From: Octopus vulgaris
Taxonomy: Eukaryota
NCBI GenBank assembly: GCA_951406725.2
Contig: OX597831.1
Span: 4,030,001-4,094,000 of the forward strand
Direction of reading: 5' to 3'
DNA length: 64,000 bases
Each line of letters starts with the position of its first letter. Positions within the stretch are counted from its first letter, which is position 1. Below the pieces are notes generated by a model. The model had not been told where the DNA came from and searched no databases. It saw only the letters and a program-made list of their open reading frames with translations. Made by a program: the position numbers and the translations under genes. Positions 26,797-60,196 of this stretch are shown one piece after another.

Positions 26797-27195
26797 CTAG
26801 CAGTATCGCCCGGCGTTGCTCGGGTTTGTAAGGGAAATAACTATATAAGCATTTTTAGAGATGTAAAGTATAATAGCCATCTCAATATGGCTAACCACAA
26901 AGGGGGGGGGGTGTTACTGTAGCTTTTTACGTTCTGAGATTTAATAATAATTTTTTAGAGAGTTACTTCCCTTATATATGCAAAAAATGCATTAAAAATG
27001 AGAAAAATTGATGGTGAATTTTTTTTTTAATCGTAGACTCATCGTAGACGCGCGCTAATACCCAGAAGGGCTCGATATGAATCACGACTATAAGATACCC
27101 GGTTTTGGTTAAACTGCACCGCAAAATGTGGGAGTAGTTAGGAATCTATATCGTAGGAGACAGACAGCACACAACCTTACTTTTATATATAACGA
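26797..27195 (-). mobile_element. Non-autonomous Helitron
   Basis: Minus strand A|TC..tatatataaaag ... cccgagcaacgccggg hairpin ... CTAG|T, with no TSD. Confidence 0.85.
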
Positions 27196-50957: not shown

Positions 50958-51300
50958 GTCCCTAAAGTGACTAAGAATACTAGTTAGCACCAGCGTTGCT
51001 AGACATAATAGTCAAAACAACTCTTAGCCACAAGAATGCACTTATCAGCGTGTGATTTCTACGGAGACTCTTATAAGCTGACAAGGTGGGATAACTTAAC
51101 CCTAGGCTGCTGGGGGAGAGCCACAGACGAGCATTAATCAAATGCGAAATCACTGATGATCTGGCTATGTCCTGAATGCTGTAGGGAGCTTGCCTCTCTT
51201 GTCATTCAAAAGGTAAATGCTTTCTAGTGGCTAAGAGTTGTTTCACTTTTATTTCTAGCAATGCTGGTGCTAACCAGTACCCTTACTCACCTTAGTGACA
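50958..51300. repeat. Inverted-repeat element (~90-bp arms) enclosing a hammerhead
   Basis: gttagcaccagc.ttgctaga..aaacaactcttagccac pairs with gtggctaagagttgttt..tctagcaa.gctggtgctaac. Confidence 0.8.
51119..51166 (+). ncRNA. Type I hammerhead with monomer-competent stem III (U4A core)
   Basis: agcca CAGACGA gcatt aatca aatgc GAAA tca ctga tga TC tggct. All three stems are Watson-Crick. Confidence 0.75.
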
Positions 51301-51398
<98 letters not shown>

Positions 51399-51610
51399 CA
51401 ATAATAATTCTCTAAATGAGATATAGACAGTAACTGCTCCATAACATAAGGGACTAAAGCCATCTGAATATGGCTAGGGACAGGGCAGGGTGGTGGGGGT
51501 GTTACTGTTGCATTTAGCCCCAGGCGAACATCAACGTCGCCAGATAGGCTTGACACCATCACGGCGTCCTCTATCCTGCAAAGGGAGATAATTCCCCGAT
51601 GAAGCGGAAA

Positions 51611-51659
51611 CCACACACGGACCTAGGTTTCAAGGTGTTTGCCTATTATCAACGTATGG
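51611..51659 (-). ncRNA. Type I hammerhead, U3-A8 variant (left arm copy)
   Basis: Minus strand reads ccatacg TTGATAA t agg caaaca cct t GAAA cctagg TC cgtgtgtgg. Confidence 0.75.
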
Positions 51660-52143
51660 TAGGCACCCGCTTCCCCGACGAACCACTCACTCTGCAGGAT
51701 ATTTATATAGATTTTCAAGCAAAATACATTTGCTGATTTCGAAAATCTGTTCGACAGCAATAATAATTCTCTAATTGAGATATAGACAGTAACTGCTCCA
51801 TAACATAAGGGACTAACCTAGGTCTGTGTGTGGTTTCCGCTTCATCGGGGAATTATCTCCCTTTGCAGGATAGAGGACGCCGTGATGGTGTCAAGCCTAT
51901 CTGGCGACGTTGATGTTCGCCTGGGGCTAAATGCAACAGTAACACCCCCACCACCCTGCCATGTCCCTAGTCATATTCAGATGGCTTTAGTCCCTTATGT
52001 TATGGAGCAGTTACTGTCTATATCTCATTTAGAGAATTATTATTGCTGTCGAACAGATTTTCGAAATCAGCAAATGTATTTTGCTTGAAAATCTATATAA
52101 ATATCCTGCAGAGTGAGTGGTTCGTCGGGGAAGCGGGTGCCTA

Positions 52144-52192
52144 CCATACGTTGATAATAGGCAAACACCTTGAAACCTAGGTCCGTGTGTGG
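52144..52192 (+). ncRNA. Type I hammerhead, U3-A8 variant (right arm copy)
   Basis: ccatacg TTGATAA t agg caaaca cct t GAAA cctagg TC cgtgtgtgg. Stem I is catacg/cgtgtg. Confidence 0.75.
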
Positions 52193-52397
52193 TTTCCGCT
52201 TCATCGGGGAATTATCTCCCTTTGCAGGATAGAGGACGCCGTGATGGTGTCAAGCCTATCTGGCGACGTTGATGTTCGCCTGGGGCTAAATGTAACAGTA
52301 ACACCCCCACCACCCTGCCCTGTCCCTAGCCATATTCAGATGGCTTTAGTCCCTTATGTTATATATATATATATATATATATAGATATATGAGTGTG

Positions 52398-52692
52398 AAG
52401 GAGCATTGGCTTAGTGGTTAGAGCGTCGAGCTTACGATCGTGAGGTTGTCGGTTCGAATCCCCGACCGGGTTGCGTGTTGTGTTCTTGAGCAAGACACTT
52501 TATTTCACGTTGCTCCAGTTCACTCAGCTGTAGAAATGAGTTGCGACGCCACAGGTGCCAAGCTGTATCGGCCTTTGCCTTTCCCTTGGATAACACTGAT
52601 GGTCTTCCATAAACGACCTTGCCCGGACTTGTGCCTGGGAGGGTAACTTTCTAGGTGCAATCCCACGGTCGGCCATGATCGAAGAGGGTCTC
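52398..52692 (+). mobile_element. SINE family C variant
   Basis: tggcttagtggttagagcg..ggttcgaatccc..ttgagcaagacactttatttcacgttgctccagt. The 3' half differs from 19860-20185. Confidence 0.8.
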
Positions 52693-53847: not shown

Positions 53848-56425
53848 GGGTGAGCTGGCAGAATCGTTAACACGCTGGACGAAATGCTTAACAGTATTTC
53901 GTCTGCTGTTACGTTCCGAGTTCAAATTCCGCCGAGATCGACTTTGCCTTTCATCCTTTCGGGGTCGATTAAATAAGTACCAGTTACGCACTGGGGTCGA
54001 TATAATCGACTTAATCCGTTTACCTGTCCTTGTTTGTCCCTTCTGTGTTTAGCCTCTTGTAATTAATAAAGAAATAGGTATTTCGTCTGCCGCTACGTTC
54101 TGAGTTCAAATTCCGCCGAGGTGGACTTTGCCTTTCATCTTTTCGGGGTCAATATATTAAGTACTAGTTACGCACTGGGGTCGATGTAATCGACTTAATC
54201 CGTTTGTCTGTCCTTGTTTGTCCCATCTGTGTGTAGCCTCTTGTGGGCAATAAAGAAATAAGAATCGTTAGCACGCCGTAAAGAATGCATCCTGGCATTT
54301 CGCTGAGTTCAAATTTCACCGAGGTTGACTTAGCTTTAATCTTTTCGAGATCGATGAAATAAGTACCAGTTGAGTAGTGGGATCAATGTAATCGGCTAGC
54401 CTTCTTCTCCCAAATCTCAGGCCTTTTGCCTATAATAGAATGAATTATCTTAATACGATTTAAAGCAGCGAGCTGACAGAATCGTCAGCATGACGGAGAA
54501 AATGCTTTGTGACATTTCGTCCGGTTTTACTTTCTGGATTCAAAATCCCGCTGAGGTTGACGTTGTCTCTCATTTGATCGGGGTCGATGAAATAAGTACC
54601 TGATGAGCATTGGGGTCAACTGATTGGGTTCAGTAGACTGCAGCTACTCCAACATCTCATCTGTGTGTGCAGATACAAATTATGTAAAAGCAATTTATAC
54701 AGGGACAAGTCGTGAACAGCTGATCGGAGGACACCAAAACCCAAACAGCATAGGGATCAGACGCAGCGATAACAAGCCTTTTCGTTTAGGGTGTGCTCAA
54801 ATGTTACTGTAAATAATTTATTTCTAAATTTGGCACAAGGCCAGCAATTTTCAGAGGAAGTCAATTATATCGACCTCAGGTGGCGAGTTGGCAGAAACGT
54901 TAGCACGCCGGGCGAAATGCGTAGCCGTATTTCGTCTGCCGTTACGTTCTGGGTTCAAATTCCGCCGAGGTCGACTTTGCCTTTCATCCTTTAGGGGTCG
55001 ATAAATCAAGTACCAGTTACGCACTGGGGTCGATGTAATCGACTTAATCCCTTTGTCTATCCTTGTTTGTCCCCTCTATATTTAGCCCATTGTGCTTAGC
55101 CCCTTGTGGGTAGTAAAGAAATATATATCGACCCCAGGGCTCAACTGGCACCTATTTTATCGATTACGAAAGGGTGGGAGGCAAAGTAGGTCTCGGCAGA
55201 ATTTGAACTCAGAGTGTAACGAGCCGAAAGAAATGCCGCTAACCATTTTATCCGGCGCGGTAATGATTTTAGCAGCTCATCACCTTAATGTCACAGTGAT
55301 TAATCCTTTCTACTATAGACACAATACCTTAAATTTTCGGAGAGGAAGCTAGTCGACCATATCGACCCCAGTGCTCAGCTGGTACTCATTTCCTTGTCAC
55401 GGAAAAGATAAAAATAAAGTCGACCTCGTCGGAATTTGAACTGAGGGCCGGACGAAATGCTGTTAAGGATTTAGTCTGGCGTGCTAGCAATTTTATCAAT
55501 TCGCCACCTTAATGTCACAGTAAATTATACAATGCTCTTCTACGAACACCAATGCAAATTATTATTTTCAGAATGATGGCGAGCTTCGACATTAAGCATC
55601 TCCGAGAATGGACGACCAGACGACACGTTTTCATACATTTCTACTCACATTAAATTTTCTTGCACGTGAAAAATTTGCATGATTTCATTGTTCCGCATTT
55701 CTCTCGAGTGTGTGATTTTATGGAAGAGGTAAGATCATCTTTATGGTTTTCTCAATTGCTATTTTGACTCTTCAGTTCAAATTACAAAGCTATAAATAAT
55801 AGTATGTATATACTGGGTTGAAAAATCCTTTTAGATGGAGAAAGTCGAAGGCAGCCCGTGGGGCAGAACCCGCATCTCTTGAAGAAACTAAAAGCATTTT
55901 ACTATGGGCAGCCTTCGACTTTTTCAATTTGAAAGAGTTTTCAATCCAAAATCTACATTCTATCCTTAATCATAGCTTTAAGTCGGCGATCTGGCAGAAT
56001 CGTTAGCACGCCGGGAAAATGCTTAGTAGCATTTCGTCCGTCTTTATGTTCTGAGTTCAAATTCTGCCGAGGTCGACTTTGCCTTTCATCCTTTCGGAGT
56101 CAATAAAATGAGTACCAGTGAAACCCTGGGGTCGAGGTAATCGACTAAGCCCCTCCCCACAATTTTCAGGCCTTGTGCCTTCATTAGAAAGGATTATTCA
56201 TAGCTTTAAGGCGGCGAGCTGGCACAATCATTAACACGCCTGGAAAAATGATTTGAAGCATTTCGTCCGTCTTTACGTTCTGAGCTCAAATTCCGCCGAG
56301 GTTGACTTTGCCTTTCATCCTTTCAGGGTCGATAAAATAAGTATCTGTAGAGTACTAGGGTTGATTTAATCGTCTTATCCACTACCCCGAGCTTGCTGGC
56401 CTTGTGCCAAGTCTGGAAACGACTA
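53848..56425. mobile_element. Cluster of about nine nested or tandem family B SINEs on both strands
   Basis: Repeated gagttcaaattccgccgagg..gcctttcatcctttcggggtcgat and its reverse complement. Confidence 0.85.
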
Positions 56426-58979: not shown

Positions 58980-60196
58980 ACTCAAAATTTGGCACAAGGC
59001 CAGCTATTTCGGGGGAGGGGGGGTTAGTCGATTGTATCGACCCCATTGATCAAGCGATAGTTATTTTATCATCCTCGAAAGGATGAAAGGCAAATTTGAC
59101 CCCGAAGGGTTTTGAACTCAGAACGTAAAGACGAACAAAATACCGATGAGCATTTTACCTGGAGTGCTAACGATTCTGCCAGTTCACTGCTTTAAGGACG
59201 AACCTAATAATGATTTCAAATTTTGGCACAAGGCCAGTATTTTCGAGTGAGGGCGTAAGTCAATTACATACACTCCAGTGCTCAGTTGATACTTACTTTA
59301 TCGACCCCGATGAATGAAAAGGTAAGTCGATGTCGGCGGAATTTGAACTCCGAGCGTATGGATTAAGGACGAATTTAATAGTCATTACTACCAGAGGTAT
59401 AAGGCTTGAAATCTTGGAGAGTTGGGGTTAGGCGACTATATCGACTCCAGTGTTCAACTGGTACTTATTTTATTGACCCTAAAAGGGTGAAAGGCAAAGT
59501 CAACCATGGCGAAATTTGAACTTAGAACGTAAAAACGGTCGAAGGATGAATTTAGTGGTTTCAAATTTTGACACAAGGCCACCAATTTCGGTGCGGTGGG
59601 GGATAAACCGATAAAATCGTTCCAAGTGTTCAACTGGTACTTATTTTATTGACCCCACAAGGATGAAAGGCAAAGTCAACCATGGCGGAATTTGAACTTA
59701 GATCGTAAAAACGGTCGAAGGATGAATTTAATGGTTTCAAATTTTGACACAAGGCCACCAATTTCAGTGCGGTGGGGGATAAACCGATAAAATCGACCCA
59801 AGTGTTCAACAGGTACTTATTTTATAGATTCCGAAGGATGAAAGGAAAAGCCTGCTCCGGGGAGTTAGAACTCAGAACGTACTGACGGATGAAATGCCGC
59901 TAAGCATTTTGTCCGGCATGATAGCAATTCTCCCAGCTTGCCACCGTGAAGGATGAATTTAATAATGACTTCGAATTTTGGGACAAAGCCAGCAATTTCG
60001 GGAGGGGTGCCAAGTTGATTACATCGACCCCAGTATTCAGTTGGTAAACATTTTATCGACCCTGAAAGTATGAAAGGCGATGTCAATGTCGATGAAGTTT
60101 GAACTCAGAATGTAAACACGGACGAAATGACGCTAAGCATTTAGTCCGACGTGCTAACGATTCTACCAGCTTACTACCTTATTGGATGAATTTAAT
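58980..60196 (-). repeat. Head-to-tail array of six family B SINEs separated by a recurring 14-bp motif
   Basis: AGGAYGAAYYTART at 59195, 59366, 59543, 59719 and 59950, and GGATGAATTTAAT at 60184. Confidence 0.85.

What the first reader, a model, noticed from the sequence alone, without database searches (positions are those of the whole stretch)
51397..52362. Candidate retrozyme / viroid-like circRNA: 359-nt self-complementary monomer with a U3-A8 hammerhead, integrated as an inverted partial-tandem array
Seen in the sequence: a non-coding unit with an exact 359-nt period, ~1.5 copies on the plus strand joined back to back (2-nt AA overlap at 51815-16) to ~1.2 copies on the minus strand. The two arms start and stop at different points of the unit (circular permutation), and both outer ends lie in (TA)n. 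The unit carries a type I HHR (catacg TTGATAA tagg caaaca cctt GAAA cctagg TC cgtgtg), complete at 51611-51659 and 52144-52192 and 5'-truncated at 51815. The unit is full of complementary blocks: ccgcttc/gaagcgg, tgcaggata/tatcctgca, gacgcc/ggtgtc, ggcga/tcgcc, acagtaac/gttactgt, agccat/atggct, agatttt/aaaatct. I count 4 differences in ~185 nt between the two right-hand copies, so the insertion is young. Established knowledge: non-LTR retrozymes in animals (corals, mussels, amphibians) are tandem repeats of a few hundred nt with type I HHRs that produce circRNAs; C3-G8 is a Watson-Crick pair that tolerates U-A; palindromic stem III indicates dimeric cleavage; PLE insertions are typically inverted and favour AT-rich targets. 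Inference: this is cDNA copied more than once around a circular RNA template by a PLE RT with one template switch. Searches for canonical CUGANGA would miss it.
Basis: partly seen in the sequence, partly recalled or inferred. Interest (0 to 1): 0.92.

Follow-up and report, generated by a model that had tools for sequence, protein, structure and literature searches.

The report
Retrozyme spread by Penelope-like retroelement
This is one young copy of a widespread family of 360-base non-coding repeats with a self-cutting hammerhead RNA motif (a known class, 'retrozymes'), and the ends of its insertions match those of a Penelope-like jumping gene in the same genome, which most likely copies it from two fixed start points at once.

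Summary
In detail: 359-nt period, back-to-back arms of 1.17 and 1.53 units in (TA)n, type I hammerhead. It belongs to a large clade (4,209 matches to a 3' hairpin) whose hammerhead and rod covary across subfamilies: a non-LTR retrozyme. The ends are not random permutations. 148 of 170 arm 3' ends fall at two unit sites about 44 nt apart, and 51 of 64 two-armed loci have one arm at each. A young Neptune-like Penelope element (PLE) in this genome shows the same two-site 'tail', (TA)n target and UUGAUAA core. Internal two-site priming of both strands is shown in vitro for another PLE (PMC11167929). So the inversion is twin priming, not one template switch. A circular template is likely, not shown: arrays reach 9+3 near-identical laps, but 3 of 46 loci look copied from non-identical multimers. 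U3-A8 is already in print (PMC4209133); sister subfamilies have canonical cores. Cleavage and expression are untested. The scan noted similar PLE passengers in other genomes.

The parts
51338..51397 (.). (TA)n target, left flank
   Evidence: 141 of 148 fixed arm ends in the family are followed by AT-rich sequence
51397..51816 (-). Arm B: 1.17 units, RNA-sense 3' end at unit position 359 (outer, 51397), 5'-truncated at unit position 299
51397..51440 (-). 44-nt 'tail' (unit 316-359) between the two priming sites, terminal on this arm only
   Evidence: analogous 40-nt tail in the local PLE
51614..51658 (-). Complete type I hammerhead, minus copy
51815..51816 (.). Head-to-head junction of the two 5'-truncated arms, 2-nt AA overlap
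   Evidence: overlaps/gaps of -7 to +9 nt in 56 of 64 two-armed loci
51815..52362 (+). Arm A: 1.53 units, 5'-truncated at unit position 127 (inside the hammerhead), 3' end at unit position 315
52004..52362 (+). One full 359-nt monomer (no meaningful ORF; 46% GC)
52102..52231 (+). Long imperfect rod (52102-52136 with 52196-52231) that closes hammerhead stem I and would hold the ends of a cleaved monomer together
   Evidence: pair probabilities about 0.9-1.0; compensatory changes in helices 6-8
52145..52189 (+). Complete type I hammerhead: U3-A8 core, U.U at base of stem II, palindromic stem III, predicted cleavage after 52183
52328..52345 (+). AGCCAU/AUGGCU hairpin just upstream of priming site A; nearly invariant in the clade and echoed in a second retrozyme family
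52360..52390 (.). (TA)n target, right flank

Best explanation
A non-autonomous, non-coding passenger (non-LTR retrozyme) of a (TA)n-targeting Neptune-like PLE. Steps: (1) tandem copies are transcribed into multimers [inferred]; (2) the hammerhead, working as a dimer through its palindromic stem III, cuts out ~360-nt monomers that a host ligase circularises [inferred from mussel/axolotl/coral retrozymes; structure under selection is shown, cleavage is not]; (3) a PLE RT-endonuclease dimer nicks both strands of (TA)n and starts cDNA from each nick at two fixed internal sites of the same RNA, unit positions ~315 and ~355-359 [genomic signature shown; biochemistry shown only for another PLE]; (4) each cDNA runs through the ribozyme site for a variable number of laps and stops at random [shown]; (5) the two 5'-truncated cDNAs are joined head to head with 0-few nt overlap [shown], giving an inverted partial tandem with a 44-nt tail on one arm. 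About 0.9 that it is a PLE-mobilised retrozyme, about 0.8 for two-site twin priming, about 0.55 that most templates are monomer circles.
For: 148 of 170 arm 3' ends at 308-315 or 353-359; 5' ends spread evenly. 51 of 64 two-armed loci have one arm of each type, 1 has two A ends, none two B ends, 12 have one atypical end; independent choice would give about half. Ends are not set by homology to the target: 1 of 170 ends at the unit's own TATATA stretch. Local PLE: 16 of 16 fetched copies keep a 781-aa RT + CxxxxCxxC + GIY-YIG frame, median 0.7% apart; ends at 107 (26) and 147 (10) of 38, in (TA)n; 3 of 3 two-armed copies have one arm each; same UUGAUAA core with palindromic stem III. PMC11167929: a PLE protein nicks and extends both strands and starts internally at two adjacent sites that define the tail. 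Hammerhead: 196 of 211 stem IIIs palindromic in five different palindromes; 3-8 pair C-G 40, U-A 123, U-G 47, other 1. Whole unit: 10 of 88 pairs with two-sided changes, 0 of 500 shuffles as high. For a monomer template: laps discordant at segregating sites 9 of 490 (188 expected from the pool), arms 9 of 847 (327 expected); L217 has 9.1+3.1 laps with 3 private variants in all 11 full laps; no pile-up of 5' ends (3 of 170, 5.2 expected) or indels at the cleavage site.
Against: No significant sequence similarity between the unit and the PLE termini or bodies tested, so the partner is assigned by insertion anatomy only. Three of 46 two-armed loci carry a variant in the outermost lap of both arms but not in an inner lap (L020 6-nt deletion, L097, L077), which a single monomer circle cannot give. 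Lap homogeneity is also expected from a young homogeneous source array or from assembly polishing. In PMC11167929 hammerhead mutants did not affect insertion and uncleaved RNA was the main substrate. In the 2026 preprint 8 of 9 Xenopus retrozyme dimers did not cleave. This core is doubly non-canonical (U3-A8, U10.1.U11.1) and stem II is not formed in the predicted circle (p about 0; about 5 kcal/mol above the minimum). The covariation test used 9 related sequences and a structure partly derived from them.
Confidence: 0.8

Rival explanations
1. Same PLE machinery and twin priming, but the template is usually an uncleaved linear (or circular) multimer transcript of a genomic array; monomer circles are rare or irrelevant and the hammerhead is weak.
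For: 3 of 46 loci show variants mirrored in register between arms. Uncleaved RNA is the main substrate for the anole PLE in vitro (PMC11167929). The most abundant core among the three counted is a U4C variant (1,209 matches vs 586 canonical and 305 of the window type).
Against: In-register copies are not closer than out-of-register ones overall (mean 1.2% vs 1.5%, 22 loci, Wilcoxon p 0.39). 36 sites are derived in all copies of a locus against 3 mirrored events. 5' truncation can only shorten arrays, so 9-lap arms with fixed private variants need a monomer bottleneck and regrowth. Mirroring could also come from conversion between inverted arms.
Confidence: 0.35
2. One reading: one RT runs round the template and makes the inversion by a single template switch or fold-back onto its own cDNA.
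For: Both arms of a locus share variants; some inner junctions are short palindromes or overlaps; self-priming was proposed for rotifer PLEs (PMC3846280).
Against: Fold-back needs one arm to be contained in the other: not so in the window locus nor in 28 of 51 A/B loci; 14 of 51 have both arms longer than one unit. It does not explain why the second arm ends at the other fixed site in 51 of 52 classed loci.
Confidence: 0.07
3. The copies are truncated ends of an unsampled autonomous PLE whose terminal region holds this repeat, or a satellite expanded at the DNA level.
For: Only 150 of 6,136 GIY-YIG candidates were scored and 46 loci examined; vertebrate retrozymes resemble pLTRs (2026 preprint).
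Against: In the 97 + further loci mapped, arms consist of the unit only and run lap after lap to an inner junction or unrelated flank; dispersed short arrays with fixed ends in (TA)n are not what unequal crossing-over makes. I did not run an ORF search over all retrozyme flanks.
Confidence: 0.08
4. An autonomously replicating viroid-like RNA whose genomic copies are by-products.
For: Size, branched-rod fold on both polarities (z -4.9 and -3.8), covariation.
Against: Hammerhead on one polarity only; every mapped insertion has the same polarity relative to the target; subfamily structure looks like successive retrotransposon bursts.
Confidence: 0.03
5. The inversion is an assembly artefact.
For: Inverted near-identical repeats are hard to assemble.
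Against: The same geometry recurs in 64 of 97 loci with different junctions and in the PLE; the arms differ by private mutations.
Confidence: 0.01

Closest known systems
Animal non-LTR retrozymes (Cervera & de la Pena 2020, PMC7229834; mussel 350-390 nt, axolotl 330/350 nt, coral 225-245 nt)
   Same: Tandem non-coding unit of this size, GC under 50%, one type I hammerhead per unit, palindromic stem III, self-paired monomer; U.U at the base of stem II as in axolotl HHR_Amex2.
   Different: Short dispersed arrays in (TA)n with two fixed 3' ends and inverted arms; cores U3-A8, U3.G8, U4C and canonical in sister subfamilies; circular RNA and cleavage not shown here.
Retrozymes as non-autonomous PLE derivatives (Li, Clavereau & Pollet 2026, 10.64898/2026.07.22.740005)
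   Same: Co-occurrence with PLEs; proposed use of PLE machinery.
   Different: Their link is sequence relatedness to pLTRs in Xenopus and they favour local DNA-level expansion; here the link is insertion anatomy, no similarity to the PLE ends tested, and arrays appear to arrive ready-made.
EN+ PLE insertions, Neptune-like (Craig et al. 2021, 10.1101/2021.04.23.441226; Arkhipova et al. 2013, PMC3846280)
   Same: Partial tandems, inverted 5'-truncated arm, 30-40-bp tail on one end, microsatellite target, hammerhead.
   Different: No ORF; 359-nt unit instead of 4.7 kb; tail 40-44 nt (about 60 nt in the second family).
Poseidon PAc of the green anole (Frangieh et al. 2024, PMC11167929)
   Same: Two adjacent internal start sites defining the tail, little homology to the nick, both target strands extended.
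   Different: PAc data are in vitro for an autonomous element; here the pattern is genomic, in a passenger, and one arm uses each site.
U3-A8 minimal hammerheads of Schistosoma mansoni PLEs (Cervera & de la Pena 2014, PMC4209133)
   Same: U3-A8 core covariation, dimer-type stem III.
   Different: Here 6-bp stem I on a long rod and a 3-4-bp stem II, i.e. canonical-size rather than minimal architecture.

Membership tests
Non-LTR retrozyme | Tandem non-coding repeat of about 150-450 nt without LTR features or ORF | tested here: met
   359-nt period; arrays up to 9.1 laps; only short incidental ORFs
Non-LTR retrozyme | One type I hammerhead per unit | tested here: met
   Motif and covariation; Rfam models do not detect it
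Non-LTR retrozyme | Multi-copy and dispersed | tested here: met
   305 window-type cores, 4,209 hairpin matches, reversed-pattern controls 0
Non-LTR retrozyme | Highly self-paired monomer | tested here: met
   z -4.9, 62% paired; compensatory changes
Non-LTR retrozyme | At least two consecutive complete hammerheads in a locus ('active' by the 2026 preprint's rule) | tested here: inconclusive
   Not met at the window locus (one complete hammerhead per arm); met by 30 of 170 family arms
Non-LTR retrozyme | Self-cleavage of the transcript | not testable with these tools
   Needs in vitro transcription
Non-LTR retrozyme | Expressed as circular monomer RNA | not testable with these tools
   Needs RNase R / northern or total-RNA reads
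PLE-mobilised insertion | Tail: two 3' ends 30-40+ nt apart, the longer on one side only | tested here: met
   148 of 170 ends; 51 of 64 two-armed loci
PLE-mobilised insertion | Partial tandem with inverted 5'-truncated arm | tested here: met
   64 of 97 loci two-armed
PLE-mobilised insertion | Intact contemporary PLE with the same target and end rule | tested here: met
PLE pLTR derivative | Sequence similarity to a pLTR | tested here: not met
   No significant alignment with 46 PLE loci examined beyond the hammerhead core; other PLE families were not sampled
Neptune clade (for the partner) | RT followed by CX2-5CxxC linker and C-terminal GIY-YIG | tested here: met
   DKG 155, YLDD 425, CGRPNCGIC 647, IY..YIG 686; Pfam RVT_1 and GIY-YIG
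Neptune clade (for the partner) | Phylogenetic placement with Neptune rather than Nematis (which shares the linker) | not tested
   No named references in the homologue list; no tree built
Viroid-like replicon | RNA-RNA replication, ribozymes or multimers of both polarities | tested here: inconclusive
   Hammerhead found on one polarity; RNA not testable

The most novel reading that the evidence does not exclude
A PLE protein dimer loads on one covalently closed ~360-nt RNA that it recognises by structure, not sequence, and runs two simultaneous rolling-circle reverse transcriptions from sites ~44 nt apart, one from each strand of a nicked (TA)n. The thousands of loci would then be the first genome-wide record that explains PLE head-to-head inversions, tails and tandems with one mechanism, and the unit would be a minimal natural cargo for PLE-mediated insertion. 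The C3-G8, U3-A8, U3.G8 and U4C subfamilies would be a natural series tuning ribozyme strength against circle stability.
Probability: 0.4. Interest if true: 0.72.

Novelty: new member of a known kind. Interest (0 to 1): 0.52.

Why it matters
Which enzyme mobilises animal retrozymes, and whether circles are the template, has been a proposal since 2014-2020, supported so far by co-occurrence and pLTR similarity. Here the passenger carries the PLE tail signature, a young intact candidate partner exists in the same genome, and the one-arm-per-site rule gives a sharp prediction for PLE integration (one start site per target strand). A 360-nt template, a 781-aa protein and a (TA)n target make this directly testable with the published in vitro assay. 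The class itself, the U3-A8 core and inverted PLE insertions are known.

Tried and rejected
Rfam scan: no hammerhead hit at E<=10; says only that the models miss it. Expression: no RNA holder listed on record; laying three guessed-RNA runs and one unlabelled run gave contigs only, no ends or strand, so nothing is concluded. Homology of the unit to PLE ends: BLAST and local alignments with shuffles not significant; an apparent shared CUC-N-GAG hairpin plus UAUUAU in both tails scored below the shuffle mean and is not counted. Microhomology as the cause of the fixed ends: rejected. Pile-up of 5' ends or indels at the cleavage site (linear monomer or end-to-end jumping): not seen. In-register vs out-of-register divergence: no overall difference. 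(window-wide hammerhead scan) had a faulty pattern and one search used wrong coordinates for stems I-II; superseded; the window-wide scan was not repeated. Protein homologue search gave no clade names. ARAGORN found no tRNA nearby. Literature searches for retrozyme or hammerhead plus octopus, cephalopod PLEs (55), twin priming in PLEs and core mutants found no description of this family or of the one-arm-per-site rule; the library lacks most subscription papers and Repbase/Dfam, and the supplement of PMC7229834 could not be read, so it may list such a family.

Full report
Observation. The sequence is as described. A minus-strand arm (51397-51816, 1.17 units) and a plus-strand arm (51815-52362, 1.53 units) of a 359-nt unit meet head to head with a 2-nt overlap; both outer ends run into (TA)n. 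The right-hand copies differ at 4 of 189 positions; all five discordant positions in the locus are private changes in one copy, so the insertion is young but not brand new. The hammerhead parses at 52145-52189 with cleavage predicted after 52183, and at 51614-51658 on the minus strand. The monomer folds far better than shuffles as a circle (-118.1 kcal/mol, z -4.9, 0 of 150). It has no meaningful ORF and no Rfam hammerhead hit.

Family. A genome search with the monomer gave 138 matches from only 40 of 1,463 candidates scored. Exact-pattern counts (reversed controls all 0): 305 cores of the window type, 586 canonical CUGANGA cores with G10.1-C11.1, 1,209 cores with U4C, 4,209 copies of the 3' hairpin. 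A second, distantly related ~360-nt family with UUGAUAA and stem III ACAUGU has 430 matches.

The hammerhead is under selection. Among 211 parsed motifs (overlapping loci de-duplicated by context; a few repeats may remain) the 3-8 pair is U-A 123, U-G 47, C-G 40, other 1; stem III is a perfect palindrome in 196, in five different sequences; stem I varies by G-U/G-C/U-A exchanges. Across 9 divergent laps, 10 of 88 pairs change on both sides, above all 500 shuffles and all slid controls, mostly in the rod that closes stem I; relatedness and a structure partly derived from these rows weaken this test. The palindrome gives an 8-bp intermolecular duplex (-11.4 kcal/mol), so dimeric cleavage is expected (PMC4209133, PMC7229834). 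In the predicted circle stem I forms but stem II does not. That U3-A8 keeps activity is recalled from general hammerhead literature and comes from no call; PMC11167929 shows partial rescue for C3G/G8C. U3-A8 was reported in about 1,300 S. mansoni PLE motifs (PMC4209133), and U.U at the base of stem II in an axolotl retrozyme that cleaves well as a dimer (PMC7229834).

The ends are fixed. I mapped 170 arms in 97 loci (best BLAST hits and the first listed pattern matches, so biased to longer copies; L106/L107 are a duplicated pair). With unit position 1 = 52048, 74 arms end at 308-315 (A) and 74 at 353-359 (B); 141 of these 148 are followed by AT-rich sequence; 5' ends are spread evenly. Of 64 two-armed loci, 51 are A+B, 1 is A+A, 12 have one atypical end; 33 loci are single-armed (17 A, 14 B, 2 other). 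A further set from other subfamilies gave 48 of 53 arms at the same sites (three loci repeat the first set). The unit's own TATATA stretch takes 1 of 170 ends, so target homology does not pick the sites. The window locus is a typical A+B case.

The partner. A GIY-YIG search (150 of 6,136 candidates scored) showed a young element with a 781-aa RT, CxxxxCxxC linker and GIY-YIG frame, a 4,713-nt period and an upstream frame; the 16 copies fetched were chosen for the intact frame and differ by a median 0.7%. Its terminal repeat holds a hammerhead-like motif with the same UUGAUAA core and palindromic ACAUGU. It ends in (TA)n at positions 107 (26) and 147 (10) of 38 mapped ends, and its three two-armed copies have one arm at each. 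This is the PLE tail (Craig et al., passages read; PMC3846280, passages read). PMC11167929 (main text read to the methods) shows that a purified PLE protein nicks and extends both target strands and starts at two adjacent internal RNA sites that match the tail; it is modelled as a dimer. The unit shows no significant similarity to the PLE ends examined, so this partner is inferred from anatomy, age and target, and the unit is not shown to be a pLTR derivative.

How the inversion arises. Fold-back of one cDNA needs one arm inside the other; that fails for the window locus and for 28 of 51 A+B loci, and 14 of 51 have both arms longer than a unit. Two primings, one per target strand and one per start site, on the same RNA explain the geometry. 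Both arms carry the same variants (9 of 847 comparisons discordant, 327 expected from the subfamily pool).

Circle or multimer. For a circle: 30 of 170 arms cross the cleavage site two or more times, with no excess of 5' ends or indels there; laps agree at segregating sites (9 of 490 discordant, 188 expected); L217 has 9.1+3.1 laps, mean 0.2 differences, with three variants in all 11 full laps and none of 75 other laps; arrays cannot lengthen by truncating retrotransposition alone. Against: in 46 A+B loci, 36 sites are derived in all copies, but three loci have a variant in the outermost lap of both arms and not in an inner lap; L020 (6-nt deletion) was checked by eye. These need a non-identical multimer template or conversion between arms; they also show that both arms can be read in register from one molecule. 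Overall in-register and out-of-register divergence do not differ (22 loci, p 0.39). In vitro, uncleaved RNA suffices for a PLE (PMC11167929), and 8 of 9 Xenopus dimers did not cleave (2026 preprint, read from abstract to discussion). I put monomer circles as the main template at about 0.55.

Comparison and novelty. By size, tandem arrangement, hammerhead type and fold this is a non-LTR retrozyme (PMC7229834, results and discussion read; supplement unreadable), with cleavage and circular RNA untested. PLE mobilisation and circular templates were proposed in PMC4209133 (results and discussion read) and PMC7229834, and pLTR relatedness in the 2026 preprint. My searches found no description of this family or of the one-arm-per-site rule, but repeat databases and most subscription papers were not searched. 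Earlier notes of this scan report PLE-type passengers and stumps in other genomes and none on this sequence or genome.

Verdict. Real, well supported, a new member of a known kind. Its value is the unusually clean genomic evidence on how PLE machinery copies a retrozyme and a ready in vitro test. Interest 0.52.

Noticed in passing
G000, e.g. L167-L186, L139:14-80: Second non-coding ~360-nt hammerhead family (UUGAUAA, stem III ACAUGU; 430 matches) with two fixed ends about 60 nt apart in (TA)n and a related GCCAU hairpin and tail.
   Followed up: partly
L217, L218, L220 (G000:C1): Subfamily with U4C in the hammerhead core (CCGAUGA/CCGACGA; 1,209 matches) is the most abundant of three counted and includes long, nearly identical arrays; a change at a normally invariant core position in an actively amplifying family is unexplained.
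   Followed up: partly
L154:1468-5171 and L151-L166: Young autonomous Neptune-like PLE, 4,713-nt period, with a 479-codon open frame without Pfam match upstream of and overlapping the 781-aa RT-EN frame.
   Followed up: partly
window 26860-26960: Short two-armed stump of a more distant relative of the same clade (hairpin region, 78% identity).
   Followed up: no
window 50958-51299: Element with 59-nt inverted ends (83% complementary), MITE-like, immediately left of the microsatellite.
   Followed up: no
window 52395-52690: tRNA-like head (weak Rfam tRNA match 52407-52466, no ARAGORN gene) followed by a repeat body: probably a tRNA-derived SINE.
   Followed up: no
window 53894-54260 and 59440-59850: Related 184-nt and 176-nt partial tandem repeats (2.0 and 2.3 copies) sharing a TTTGCCTTTCAT...GGGGTC core; possibly another tandem-inserting element.
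   Followed up: no
L020, L219, L019: Recurrent 6-nt deletions in the C-rich stretch at unit 255-282 in independent subfamilies.
   Followed up: partly
L124, L148: A more distant PLE family with a canonical CUGAAGA/UUGAAGA hammerhead-like motif, also ending in (TA)n; an alternative partner candidate.
   Followed up: no
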